Shown here: positions 13,255-50,210 of the stretch, piece by piece
Layout of the letters: each line of letters begins with the position of its first letter
How positions within the stretch are numbered: the first letter of the stretch is position 1
Source: Octopus vulgaris
Lineage: Eukaryota
Reading direction: 5' to 3'
Assembly (NCBI GenBank): GCA_951406725.2
Contig: OX597819.1
Coordinates: 111,228,001 to 111,292,000, forward strand
Length of the DNA stretch: 64,000 nt
Position numbers and translations under genes: made by a program
The notes under the pieces: generated by a model
What the model was told of the DNA's origin: nothing
Seen by the model: only the letters and a program-made list of their open reading frames with translations
Databases searched by the model: none

Positions 13255-13430
13255 AAAACAGTGCGAAGTAAATGCAACGTAAATCACAAGAAAGCAAATG
13301 TGAATTGATGTAGACGTCAGTTTCTTGGGGATGGAGTCATAACCCCGAAATATAGAATACAAGGTAAGTCTACATAAATTCACATATTTGTTTTCTTGTG
13401 ATTTACCTTGCATTTACTTCGCATTGTTTT
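13255..13430. repeat. Inverted repeat with ~62-bp arms and a ~50-bp loop containing a degenerate hammerhead-like motif
   Basis: aaaacagtgcgaagtaaatgcaacgtaaatcacaagaaa...gtagac pairs with gtctac...ttcttgtgatttaccttgcatttacttcgcattgtttt. Confidence 0.8.
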
Positions 13431-30517: not shown

Positions 30518-32562
30518 TTGATTGATGTTGTCATTCGAATTATTGTTGCTCTCTATCGAGAGATAGCTATGGCTAAAAGTTATTTTTATTCGGACCTTAG
30601 TGGTTCCGAATTGTCCTCTTCGGAGGAGAAAATGGTTCTCACAATCGAAAAGATGGATAAATTACTGAAAAAGAAGAGCTTCGCTGAAGCGGCAGAAGTA
30701 AAGAAGAAAGACCTGAACCTGGCAAATATCAAAAGAGACGAAAAAATGGTGATTTTAGGCTGTCACCACCCCAGAAGAAATTAATAGAAAAACCATGATA
30801 TACAAAGTCTACTCGATACAGAAAAGAAAAATCGACCACATGGAAGAAGGAATTTTAGAAAATGTATTATATTTAGTCTGGCCTGACATTACTTACTTGG
30901 TCAGAGGGAATAAATACGGAACTATCATATTCCACTACAAAACAGAAGAAAAAGCAAGAGAATACGCGGTAAAAACAATAAAGACGGATAAGGTGGTCCT
31001 TCTACCAACTTATATGGGAAGAAGGACGTCAAAGATAAAGGTGGAAGGAATTCCACCGGAAATTAATTTGGCTTGGGTCGTGGCAGCTGTTCTCCTGGGA
31101 AGAGGAGAAGTAGCCGTCCTCAAACCCAAAAACCGTCGGCTCGGTTTGGAGAAGCCAAATGTTGGAACTAATCGTACAGGCAGAAGGAAAGGCACTAGAA
31201 AATTCTTCAGAGACGGTATGAATAGGAGACCTGGGGTTGAAAGTGTGTGTGTGGGGGGGGGGGCAGGGCTCCGCGTTGTTTTAAATGTGGCCTAAATGGC
31301 CACATTACAGCACACTGCCCTCAGCAGAAGCAGACAGAAGAAAGGATACCGGAAAAGAAGCAAGAAGTGGAAAAAGAAAAAAAGAAAGAAGACGAATGGA
31401 AGATTGCTGAAGAAAAAGGAAGAGAAAAAAGAAACAGTATATTGTGGAACCCCAAACACTGGCAGGTCCATATAGGCTGGAATTTCTGAACGCTCAATTG
31501 TGGATATGGTCAAGCAGCGACGGATCTTCCAGGTCGTTCTTAGATAGGGTGTTAATTAGAAAAGCAGATACAAATATAGCTAGGTGTCCACAGTTTCATT
31601 CGGTCAGCTACAGTGATCATAAAATGCTCACCTGTAAGCTTGACATAGATAAGCTATATAATAGATGTCCCGGCTACTAGAAACTTTGGCGATTAAGGAG
31701 TACAAAGACCAGATTAAGTTATTGATCTAGAGGACATTAACCGGTTCCATTATTAATAATAGACGGTGGCATGCCCTCAAGCGAGCCATTAAATGTAAGT
31801 CTAGGTTTAGTGGATAGAGAGGCTAGGAGGGAATCAGCTTTAGTTAAGGATTTAGAGGAAAGAACGGAAACTGGCTCTGCGGCTCAGGTGAAGGCTAAGA
31901 GACTGGCATTAAACCAGCACCTCGATTCCAAACACATGGGTTGCATTGTCAGGGCTAGGCTTCGTGCAGTGGGTTGTGACGGAATCAAGGCCGCGGGATG
32001 GGCCCGAGTGGTGAAAGCCCAACGTGGTAATGATGCCACAATCCGATCTTTGTCGAACCAACAAGGTAAGTTGATAGATGAACCCGAGGAGATGTGTGAG
32101 GCTTTTCAGAAGCACTTCGCCCAGCTTTTCGGTGGGGGCGACGGACTGGATAGTTGGAGGGACCTAATGGACTTCCTCGCCGGGATGCCGCGCCTGTCGG
32201 GGCGGAACGCGGATTGCTGTGAAAGGCCAATCACGCCTGAGAAGGTAATTGAGGTTACGGCAGACTGCGGCGCTTTTAAGGCACCAGGACTGGATGGCCT
32301 ACCCTATGAGTTGTATAATAGTATGCCAGACTTGTTCGGGCACCTTCTGGCGAATATCTACACGAACTGCCAGCAGAACGGATTTATTCCCAGATCTGTG
32401 CGCCGGGGAGTAGTGACGCTTGTCAGAAAGGACCCGGACAAGGGGGATTCCGTTGATAATTTTCGGCCTATCACTCTGCTAAACGCAGAGTTGAAGATTT
32501 TGGCCAAAGTGTTATCGAAAAGATTGGCGCGTGTCGCGGATAGTTCTATCGGGGAGGCATAG
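30518..32562 (+). mobile_element. Tx1/L1-group LINE, decayed: ORF1 with zinc knuckle, internally deleted APE endonuclease, N-terminal RT, 3'-truncated
   Basis: CCHC knuckle CFKCGLNGHITAHC (31247 ORF); APE C-terminal motifs LDRVL and SDHKML (31444 ORF); RT N-terminal motifs KAPGLDGLPYELY and NFRPITLLNAELKILAKVLSKRL (31771-32562 ORF). Confidence 0.9.
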
Positions 32563-39082: not shown

Positions 39083-39237
39083 TTTTACCAATTATATATT
39101 TTTTATTTATTATTTTGCACATTACTTAATCATAGGTATATGTTTTTATCTATCTTATATTTAATTTTTTTCTATATGGTATAATTTAATTATTTCATTG
39201 TTTAATTGATAAAAGGCGTTTTTTTCTAATACATATA

Positions 39238-39337
<100 letters not shown>

Positions 39338-39344
39338 ATATATA

Positions 39345-39868
39345 CGAATATAAACAAGAAGGGTAGTAATAATTAGTTACTACCAGGTGCCCAGCACAAA
39401 AGACGAATTAGTCATAAGACAAGATATTAATCATAAAGCTTTATGATTAATAGTTTGTCTTATGACTAATTCGTCTTTTGTGCTGGGCACCTGGTAGTAA
39501 CTAATTATTACTACCCTTCTTGTTTATATTCGCATATTACTTGATGAATTTATTCGTAAAATTCTTCCCGGCATGCCCTATACTGCCGTGTAAGTTTTGC
39601 GTCTGCGCAGAGATTTGAAAAGTTAAGATCTGCTAGTAGTCGAGTTCAACACATGGTCTCACATTGCTGCAGACCTCGATTCAATTTAGGCCACTTGTTG
39701 ATGAAGCCAACCTTAGCAAACATATTCTGTGTTTTGCTAGAAAGAGGCAGAAACTGATCAGTCCGAGGTGTAAGGTTATCGGTAAACGTTTTTGATTTTC
39801 ACTCTTGATAAATTAATCTCCCTTTTGTGTTCCCAGTACTCGGCATCCTAATTTAGGAGCTTAATTTA
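39345..39868 (+). mobile_element. Retrozyme-like / Penelope-mobilised non-coding element with a 5' fold-back palindrome, inserted in (TA)n
   Basis: 94-bp-arm palindrome 39345-39532 centred at 39438/39439 with 2 mismatches; hammerhead at 39692-39770; (TA)n on both sides. Confidence 0.75.
39692..39770 (+). ncRNA. Type I hammerhead ribozyme (C3U variant)
   Basis: CACUUG-UUGAUGA-A-GCC...(UAGCAAA/UUUGCUA)...GGC-A-GAAAC-UGAUCA-GUC^-CGAGGUG; palindromic stem III ACUGAUCAGU; predicted cut after 39763. Confidence 0.7.
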
Positions 39869-39882
39869 TATATATATATATA

Positions 39883-39934
<52 letters not shown>

Positions 39935-42060: not shown

Positions 42061-42695
42061 ATAACATAAGGGACTAAAGCCATCTGAATATGGCTAGGGA
42101 CAGGGCAGGGTGGTGGGGGTGTTACTGTTGCATTTAGCCCCAGGCGAACATCGACGTCGCTAGATAGGCTTGACACCGTCACGGTGTCCTTTAACCTGCA
42201 AAGGGAGATAATTCCCCGATGAAGCGGAAACCACACACGGACCATGGTTTCAAGGTGTATTGCCTATCGTCAACGTGTGGTAGGCCTCCGCTTCCTCGAC
42301 GAAATCTCACTCTGCAGGTTATTCATATATAGATTTTCAAGCAAAATACATTTGCTGATTTCGAAAATCTGTTCGACAGCAATAATAATTCTCTAAAAGA
42401 GATATAGACAGTAACTGCTCGATAACATAAGGGACTAAAGCCATCTGAATATGGCTAGGGACAGGGCAGGGTGGTGGGGGTGTTACTGTTGCATTTAGCC
42501 CCAGGCGAACATCGACGTCGCTAGATAGGCTTGACACCGTCGGTGTCAAGCCTATCTAGCGACGTCGATGTTCGCCTGGGGCTAAATGCAACAGTAACAC
42601 CCCCACCACCCTGCCCTGTCCCTAGCCATATTCAGATGGCTTTAGTCCCTTATGTTATCGAGCAGTTACTGTCTATATCTCTTTTAGAGAATTAT
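42061..42695 (-). mobile_element. Retrozyme-like element: 361-bp monomer in partial tandem plus a 155-bp inverted 5' copy, inserted in (TA)n
   Basis: 42061-42180 is repeated at 42422-42541; palindrome 42385-42695 centred at 42540; hammerhead at 42234-42279; no credible ORF; (TA)n on both sides. Confidence 0.85.
42234..42279 (-). ncRNA. Type I hammerhead ribozyme (C3U variant)
   Basis: CACACG-UUGACGA-U-AGG(CAAUACA)CCU-U-GAAAC-CAUG-GUC^-CGUGUG; 6-bp stem I; palindromic stem III ACCAUGGU; predicted cut between 42240 and 42239. Confidence 0.8.
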
Positions 42696-49516: not shown

Positions 49517-50210
49517 CATACATTCAAAAGCACACATATATATATATATACAGACACACTTAAAAACACGAACTCGTAAATTACTCAACGAAATAAAAAA
49601 CGAAAATTACTGTTTATACTTAACGCATTCTTTCGTAATATACACACATCTGTTCTTACATACATTCATACACGTACATACATACATGCATTTATACATG
49701 TATGCATACATACATGCATACATGCATACGTACATGCATAAATATACATAAATATATATATGTGTATGCATATATATATACACATATATACATATGTACG
49801 CATGTATATATACATATGTACACATATATACATATGTACACATATATACATATATACGCATGGCGCGCTGTTAGTTGGGGCATTTGAATTATAACGTCGG
49901 ATGTAATCAATTGAACCACACGTGTATTTATCGTTATGGTAAAATCTGGCGTGTGATTGAGTGGATTTCATCCAGATAGTTTTGGCTGACGAGCTACAAG
50001 TGGATTTTTTTTTAAGTAAAATTACATTTAATTCATTAATAGCGAAACAATTGTCCCAAAATAATCTGTATTTTTGTTATTTTTTATTTGCCCTGTCCGT
50101 GTGAGCTAACAATCGTACTGACTTTCATGGGAAACATGTATTTTTGTGGTTGAAACCTTTTGGATTAACTAGTGCTAGAGTGAGCCATATAGTGACCACT
50201 CTCTTATATT

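What the first reader, a model, noticed from the sequence alone, without database searches (positions are those of the whole stretch)
39345..39868. Third element: 94-bp-arm palindrome upstream of a hammerhead with extended stem II
Seen: near-perfect loopless palindrome 39345-39532, then hairpin-rich sequence and a plus-strand hammerhead (UUGAUGA, GCC/GGC stem II with an inserted hairpin, GAAAC-UGAUCA-GUC). Motifs flanking the ribozyme (ctgc..agagattt upstream, aatt.atctccc.ttt downstream) echo the 42-kb element read on its sense strand. An upstream acctcg (about 39673) could pair with the stem I 3' strand cgaggt as an alternative fold. Inference: a distant subfamily with the same inverted-5'-end architecture and (TA)n targeting.
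Basis: partly seen in the sequence, partly recalled or inferred. Interest (0 to 1): 0.75.

Follow-up and report, generated by a model that had tools for sequence, protein, structure and literature searches.

The report
Penelope-pasted hammerhead retrozyme, inverted copy
This is one worn, cut-short copy of a 455-letter protein-less repeat with hundreds of copies in this animal genome; it carries a predicted self-cutting RNA fold, and its mirror-image end was likely made when a Penelope-type retrotransposon enzyme copied it from both ends of a DNA break, so it is a new family of a known kind of element.

Summary
Palindrome (94-bp arms, no loop, 2 mismatches) and type I hammerhead motif are real. 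The locus is one insertion of a non-coding 445-457-nt repeat (230 and 308 exact motif matches in the genome; head-to-tail arrays of up to about 10 units), almost always in (TA)n. Hammerhead stems and the 3-8 core pair covary across 97 distinct copies; Rfam misses it. Copies end at two fixed sites about 115 nt apart, and two-ended insertions use one of each (28 AB, 1 BB, 0 AA). That is the Penelope footprint (5' inverted copy, tail at one end), with an unusually long tail. No ORF adjoins any copy; intact GIY-YIG/RT Penelope-like elements exist in the genome, but no partner was identified. The 42-kb element is a separate family with the same architecture, not a subfamily. Cleavage and circles are not shown. 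Earlier notes of this scan report the same kind and end rule for other families in this genome. New member of a known kind.

The parts
39229..39344 (.). (TA)n microsatellite, left part of the target
   Evidence: TRF period 2, 58.5 copies
39345..39438 (-). 5'-inverted arm: antisense copy of unit positions ~131-226; its outer end is the family's fixed long end (site B)
39439..39866 (+). sense part, 428 nt (0.94 unit): unit positions 131-455, across the predicted cut, then 1-105; ends at the family's fixed short end (site A)
   Evidence: 96-97% identical to nearest copies
39493..39532 (+). site B region: hairpin 39493-39515, then CCCTT-pyrimidine stretch up to the long end
   Evidence: sequence; 76 of 139 family 3' ends fall at unit 215-235; local fold of a sister copy
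39673..39678 (+). decoy strand that can pair with 39764-39769 instead of stem I (predicted off-fold)
39694..39767 (+). type I hammerhead motif: U3-G8 core, extra A on both sides of stem II, palindromic stem III, GUC triplet; predicted cut after 39763
39714..39739 (+). hairpin inserted in stem II (near-invariant in the family)
   Evidence: 99.1% of cells paired, no double-sided change
39842..39866 (+). site A region: hairpin 39842-39860 and short end (this copy lacks 2 C of the family's CCCTT)
   Evidence: 43 of 139 family 3' ends fall at unit 100-118
39867..39929 (.). (TA)n microsatellite, right part of the target
   Evidence: TRF period 2, 31.5 copies

Best explanation
This is a truncated, 5'-inverted insertion of a non-coding 445-457-nt hammerhead repeat (a non-LTR retrozyme family) in a (TA)n tract, likely pasted in trans by a GIY-YIG Penelope-like retrotransposon enzyme. 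Shown: the repeat family, its head-to-tail arrays, two fixed 3' ends, the one-of-each end rule, shared haplotype of the two arms, read-through across the cut site, covarying hammerhead stems. Inferred steps: the repeat is transcribed; the hammerhead, probably as a dimer through its palindromic stem III and only in a transient fold, cuts multimers into units that may close into circles; the Penelope protein cuts both strands of (TA)n; each strand primes reverse transcription on the same uncut or circular RNA, one at site A and one at site B; the two cDNAs are joined head to head. In this copy one cDNA ran 428 nt from A, the other 94 nt from B, and both stopped at unit position 131, which gives the loopless palindrome. 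This copy's single ribozyme is likely weak or off.
For: Family: 841 candidates, 40 scored, full-length hits 91-100%; 230 and 308 exact matches of two 29-mers, controls 0; 40 full units of 425-457 nt, 38 of them 443-457; about 10-unit array L061. 94 loci, 96 insertions: 43 two-ended; 119 of 139 3' ends at two sites; 129 of 139 next to (TA)4+. Two-ended insertions: AB 28, BB 1, AA 0, 14 with an off-site end; P about 5e-8 for the 29. In 18 of 24 with arm overlap >=80 nt no arm of another locus is closer than the partner arm. 91 of 100 sense runs cross the cut site. 54 of 96 insertions have a run longer than one unit, and these run into another unit; no Penelope-type ORF beside a copy in the 78 loci scanned. 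Hammerhead: 96.8% cells paired, double-sided changes in stems I, II, III and at the 3-8 pair (C-G 76, U-G 12, U-A 7 of 97). Intact 781-aa RT+GIY-YIG elements ending in (TA)n are in the genome. Papers: PMC8557442 (5' inverted copy, tail often at one end, TA bias), PMC11167929 (both strands cut and extended, two internal starts, unprocessed RNA as main substrate), PMC4209133 (PLE hammerhead traits), PMC7229834 and bioRxiv 10.64898/2026.07.22.740005 (retrozymes).
Against: No cleavage, circle or transcript shown. No autonomous partner found: no homology to the 453-nt pseudo-LTR of the 781-aa element (score 27 vs shuffles 30.8 +/- 4.0), best hit in 50 GIY-YIG loci E 0.008 over 28 AT-rich nt. The tail is 111-119 nt against the 30-40 bp in print, and the ends share 3-5 nt with (TA)n, whereas PAc starts at a non-homologous site. 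Covariation cells reflect few events on a ladder-like tree; only 101 of 500 shuffles fell at or above the pair count, so that measure is not significant. Rfam finds no hammerhead. Array L061 has variants shared by non-adjacent units, which a single round-the-circle copy does not explain without later changes. Loci were chosen by likeness to the window copy or exact motifs, which favours long, young copies.
Confidence: 0.8

Rival explanations
1. The unit is the pseudo-LTR of an autonomous Penelope-like element, and the window copy is just its 5'-truncated 3' end.
For: All Penelope marks are present; the 781-aa element has a pseudo-LTR of similar length, 453 nt. Only part of the family was inspected (94 plus 27 older loci of several hundred).
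Against: 54 of 96 insertions extend past one unit, into another unit rather than into unique 3' UTR or ORF; no Penelope ORF adjoining; no homology with the sampled elements.
Confidence: 0.08
2. Same element and enzyme, but the inverted arm arises by fold-back self-priming or a template switch onto the first cDNA, not by priming from the second DNA strand.
For: This junction is loopless; junctions with spacer <=20 nt are in excess (11 of 44 by script, 13 with two missed by it, about 4 expected). PMC3846280 reads junction palindromes as self-priming.
Against: Most junctions have long spacers; the inverted arm's outer end falls on a fixed priming site and is always the other site, which fold-back does not predict; the family sequence has no palindrome at the window's centre.
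Confidence: 0.08
3. The palindrome is an amplification or assembly chimera.
For: Loopless mirror next to (TA)n; no contig of 4 runs bridges this exact junction.
Against: The arms differ at two positions, the outer end sits at the family's site B, and 43 insertions share the layout with a strict end rule. A joint matching the inversion of another copy appears in two non-RNA runs.
Confidence: 0.02
4. A SINE-like or MITE-like repeat in which the hammerhead is a dead relic, spread by another route.
For: Window subfamily has U3-G8, a 4-bp stem I and a dominant off-fold, yet spread to at least 12 places; Rfam is silent.
Against: Stem III stays self-complementary at lengths 6, 8 and 10, the triplet stays GUH, and stems change on both sides; inverted arms vary in length, so they are not terminal inverted repeats.
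Confidence: 0.02

Closest known systems
Metazoan non-LTR retrozymes (Cervera and de la Pena 2020, PMC7229834, passages read; Li, Clavereau and Pollet 2026, bioRxiv 10.64898/2026.07.22.740005, main text parts 1-3 of 5 read)
   Same: Non-coding units of a few hundred nt, GC 38%, one type I hammerhead per unit, monomers to multimers, proposed dependence on Penelope-like elements.
   Different: Unit at the upper edge of the 150-450 bp range; stem II about 43 nt with an inserted hairpin; insertion ends, inversions and (TA)n targeting are not described in the passages I read; no pseudo-LTR homology found here; circles not shown.
EN+ Penelope-like elements, Neptune type (Craig et al. 2021, PMC8557442, passages; Arkhipova et al. 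2013, PMC3846280, passages)
   Same: 5' truncation, head-to-head inverted copy, tail at one end only, (TA)n bias; non-autonomous head-to-tail copies are described for Chlamys.
   Different: No ORF; the whole unit repeats; tail 111-119 nt instead of 30-40 bp.
Poseidon PAc of Anolis in vitro (Frangieh et al. 2024, PMC11167929, parts 1-2 of 4 read)
   Same: Both strands cut and extended; two internal start sites that bound the tail; unprocessed RNA is the main template; AT-rich targets; protein-assisted ribozyme.
   Different: PAc starts are adjacent and non-homologous to the target, with no strand difference reported; here the sites are about 115 nt apart, end in TA microhomology and are paired one per end.
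PLE-type hammerheads (Cervera and de la Pena 2014, PMC4209133, passages)
   Same: Extra nucleotide between 9 and 10.1, G10.1-C11.1 in most copies, palindromic stem III, U3-A8 covariant.
   Different: Branched-looking long stem II, a second extra A before G12, whole subfamilies with the U3-G8 wobble, and an upstream decoy for stem I.

Membership tests
metazoan non-LTR retrozyme | type I hammerhead motif in each unit | tested here: met
   core and three stems in 97 distinct copies, 96.8% cells paired; no Rfam hit
metazoan non-LTR retrozyme | head-to-tail units of a few hundred bp, dimers to multimers | tested here: met
   units 443-457 nt in 38 of 40; arrays up to about 10. The window copy itself is 0.94 unit with one ribozyme, so it fails the two-ribozyme 'active' definition of Li 2026
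metazoan non-LTR retrozyme | GC below 45%, no protein | tested here: met
   GC 0.38-0.39 in 3 units; no ORF over the element in window or 78 loci
metazoan non-LTR retrozyme | self-cleavage of the RNA | not testable with these tools
   only an indirect hint: 9 of 100 runs stop in the 13 nt after the cut, 2 of them at positions 1-2
metazoan non-LTR retrozyme | expressed as linear and circular monomers | tested here: inconclusive
   only contigs of runs guessed to be RNA; cannot tell circle from tandem or DNA
autonomous EN+ Penelope-like element | RT plus GIY-YIG ORF | tested here: not met
   none in or adjoining the element
autonomous EN+ Penelope-like element | 5' inverted truncated copy, tail at one end, microsatellite target (works-like features) | tested here: met
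   43 of 96 two-ended; AB 28, BB 1, AA 0; 129 of 139 ends at (TA)n
autonomous EN+ Penelope-like element | unit homologous to the pseudo-LTR of an element in the same genome | tested here: inconclusive
   no homology in 50 loci drawn from 150 scored of 6136 GIY-YIG candidates
PLE-type hammerhead | extra nucleotide 9/10.1, paired 10.1-11.1, palindromic stem III | tested here: met
   against PMC4209133 passages
42-kb (361-nt) hammerhead family of this window | sequence homology over the unit | tested here: not met
   score 25 vs shuffles 25.2 +/- 3.5; one short motif at 6 of 1000 in one of six tests
MITE / foldback DNA transposon | fixed terminal inverted repeats | tested here: not met
   arm lengths 26-1846 nt, 53 of 96 insertions one-sided; target duplications cannot be read in (TA)n

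The most novel reading that the evidence does not exclude
Two reverse transcriptases of one Penelope dimer load on a single circular retrozyme RNA at two fixed sites about 115 nt apart, one for each cut DNA strand, and chase each other round it; where one overtakes the other the cDNAs are joined, which gives loopless palindromes whose arms differ by whole turns, as here. The ribozyme is kept off by an upstream decoy strand and tolerates a U3-G8 core, so whole lineages spread with a damped ribozyme.
Probability: 0.3. Interest if true: 0.65.

Novelty: new member of a known kind. Interest (0 to 1): 0.36.

Why it matters
That animal retrozymes ride on Penelope-like elements rests in print on co-occurrence and terminal homology; here the insertions themselves carry the Penelope footprint. 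The strict one-short-end, one-long-end rule, with a 115-nt tail, makes a clear prediction for the open question of how Penelope inversions and tails form (one start site per DNA strand, one RNA). The C3-G8, U3-G8, U3-A8 series in one family is a natural test set for the 3-8 core pair. The window copy itself is an ordinary decayed member, and the scan has noted the same kind for other families in this genome.

Tried and rejected
Rfam at E<=10 on the finding, on a C3-G8 copy and on the 42-kb ribozyme: no hammerhead hit; whole-window Rfam shows only microRNA-like hits on simple repeats among the 150 of 353 rows listed. No RNA holder listed on record. Contigs of runs only guessed to be RNA hold relatives: 29-30 of 30 bins of one unit covered in 4 runs of 4 studies, with a head-to-tail joint of 445 in 3, and patchy cover of the window copy; no silent control was laid, so this is not used as evidence. 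Search for the partner: a Pfam accession recalled from memory is not in the library; GIY-YIG search and 20 extended loci gave Neptune-type elements without homology to the unit. A shared 'CCCTT..TGT.AT' end motif at site A, site B and the 42-kb short end is visible by eye but not above shuffles (419, 779, 465 of 1000): kept as a lead only. Excess of 5' ends exactly at the cut: weak, mostly 6-7 nt downstream. Excess of strictly loopless junctions: 3 of 44 by script (P 0.13), 5 with the window's and L186's that the script missed; in the 42-kb family 5 of 23 within 20 nt (P 0.11). Decoy pairing as a conserved switch: broken at one pair in 53 of 97 copies, so lineage-dependent. Predicted circular folds are branched, 59-65% paired, without the hammerhead formed; no viroid-like rod, and no antisense hammerhead found by the scanner in the window copy. 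Lunse et al. 2017 is not held. A paper search for natural C3U variants returned 0, too narrow to show absence. Supplements of the cited papers were not read; those of Craig 2021 and Cervera 2020 may list cephalopod families.

Full report
Observation. The palindrome is as described: 94-bp arms about 39438/39439, no loop, two adjacent mismatches, between two (TA)n tracts. A type I hammerhead motif lies at 39694-39767 with a predicted cut after 39763; my scanner found it as 1 of 3 such motifs in the window. Rfam gives no hammerhead hit and the region folds no better than shuffles, so the single copy is not proof.

The family. The window lies in a 2.8-Gb genome of 227 contigs; earlier scan notes call it an octopus, which I did not check. 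A search with 39533-39866 gave 841 candidates, 40 scored, full-length hits 91-100% identical. Two exact 29-mers match 230 and 308 times, controls 0. Copies are circular permutations of one unit; 38 of 40 full units are 443-457 nt, GC 38-39% in the three checked, with head-to-tail runs up to about 10 units. Of 150 family loci fetched I dropped 55 as overlapping and one (L082) by mistake, leaving 94 loci with 96 insertions. 54 have a run longer than one unit, continuing into another unit. In the 78 loci scanned for ORFs none of Penelope type adjoins a copy. The unit is therefore non-coding and self-contained. The sample was picked by likeness or exact motifs and favours long, young copies.

Insertion footprint. 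Numbering the unit from the predicted cut, 43 of 139 3' ends fall at 100-118 (site A), 76 at 215-235 (site B), 20 elsewhere; 129 of 139 abut (TA)4 or more. Other TA-like spots of the unit are used rarely or not at all. 43 of 96 insertions are two-ended, head to head. Of these 28 are AB, 1 BB, 0 AA and 14 have an off-site end; independent choice gives P about 5e-8 for the 29. In 18 of 24 insertions whose arms overlap by 80 nt or more, no arm elsewhere is closer than the partner arm; the window copy has one closer. The window copy is an AB insertion: inverted arm from B back to 131, sense part from 131 round to A. Junction spacers of 20 nt or less occur in 11 of 44 by script, 13 with two it missed, against about 4 expected; strictly loopless ones are few. 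91 of 100 sense runs cross the cut site, so the template was mostly uncut multimer or a circle; 9 stop in the first 13 nt, six of them at 7-8. Units in an array are close (mean 3.7 differences within loci, 24.1 between); L062 and L061 share variants across all their units, but L061 also has variants shared by non-adjacent units.

The ribozyme. In 97 distinct sequences (153 copies) the active fold has 96.8% of cells paired, against 25-40% for slid controls, with changes on both sides in stem I (A-U 52, U-A 27, unpaired 18), stem II (G-C 68, A-U 25; C-G 42, U-A 28, unpaired 24), stem III (C-G 50, U-A 42) and the 3-8 pair (C-G 76, U-G 12, U-A 7). The count of such pairs is not above the shuffle control (101 of 500), and the tree of 88 rows is a ladder, so these are few events. 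Stem III stays self-complementary at 6, 8 or 10 nt and the triplet is GUA, GUU or GUC. Extra nucleotide after A9, palindromic stem III and U3-A8 are listed traits of Penelope hammerheads (PMC4209133, passages); dimer cleavage is discussed in PMC6765202 (passages). The U3 copies sit between an older and a younger C3-G8 group on the tree. The decoy pair changes on both sides once (U-A 27, C-G 17) but is broken in 53 of 97. The window copy also has its own changes in stem I and stem II against its nearest sister. It is likely a weak or silent ribozyme, and with one ribozyme it cannot release a unit.

The 42-kb element. It is a separate, younger family (361 nt, best hits 95-100% identical). In 24 of 30 loci (6 overlapping dropped), 18 of 22 two-ended insertions pair an end at 176-179 with one at 216-224, two more are slightly short, none has two alike. 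All 40 ribozymes read have U3. It has no homology with the present unit above shuffles; one short motif echo reaches 6 of 1000 in one of six tests. Same architecture, not a subfamily.

Likely mobiliser. The genome holds many GIY-YIG matches (6136 candidates, 150 scored), including repeated 781-aa open frames with RT and GIY-YIG domains, a CX4CxxC linker of Neptune type (compared with PMC8557442), a 453-nt pseudo-LTR with a U3-A8 hammerhead, and 3' ends in (TA)n. No sampled element shares sequence with the unit, so the partner is unidentified.

Mechanism. Shown are the family, ends, pairing rule and covariation. Inferred, using PMC11167929 (both strands cut and extended, two internal starts, unprocessed RNA preferred, predicted dimer): the enzyme cuts both strands of (TA)n, one strand primes at A and the other at B on one RNA, and the cDNAs are joined head to head. 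The tail 'often at one end' of PMC8557442 is then a rule. Fold-back priming (PMC3846280) explains loopless junctions but not the pairing of sites. Circle versus linear multimer is not settled.

Known and new. Retrozymes as non-autonomous Penelope derivatives are in print (PMC7229834; bioRxiv 10.64898/2026.07.22.740005). Searches for octopus with hammerhead, retrozyme or Penelope, and for retrozyme with inversion and target priming, showed no paper on such a family in their listings; the library is partial and supplements were not read. Earlier notes of this scan describe the same kind and end rule for other families of this genome, none for this sequence; I saw them after my own counts and treat them as unchecked. 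Verdict: a new family of a known kind, interest 0.36.

Noticed in passing
window 42064-42695: Young 361-nt hammerhead family (1386 candidates; best hits 95-100%); all 40 ribozymes read have U3, 39 with G8; same one-short, one-long end rule with a tail of about 44 nt.
   Followed up: yes
window 49856-50210: A third type I hammerhead on + at 49986 with canonical core, 7-bp stem I, palindromic stem III and a long AT-rich stem II, in a stretch of about 350 nt between TA-rich tracts; probably another family.
   Followed up: no
L161, L162, L177, L178 (781-aa element): Intact-looking Neptune-type Penelope element in many copies, with a separate upstream open frame of 359-479 aa that overlaps the RT frame in L177, a repeat-rich 3' UTR and a U3-A8 hammerhead in its pseudo-LTR.
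   Followed up: partly
L172 and L176: Other hammerheads with long, hairpin-bearing stem II near GIY-YIG loci, so an extended stem II is not special to this family in this genome.
   Followed up: no
L210, L215, L217 (5' ends): Short reiterations of the first 7-20 nt after the predicted cut at 5' ends, as if the enzyme slipped repeatedly at an RNA end or a stable helix.
   Followed up: partly
window 13255-13430: Degenerate inverted repeat of about 180 nt (77% self-match) with a long spacer; not examined.
   Followed up: no
window 31741-32559: 273-aa open frame that looks like a non-LTR retrotransposon fragment (resemblance recalled, not tested).
   Followed up: no
flanks of L010, L016, L027, L030: Several other repeats with hammerhead-like cores sit in the same (TA)n tracts beside family copies, suggesting shared targets and nested insertion.
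   Followed up: no
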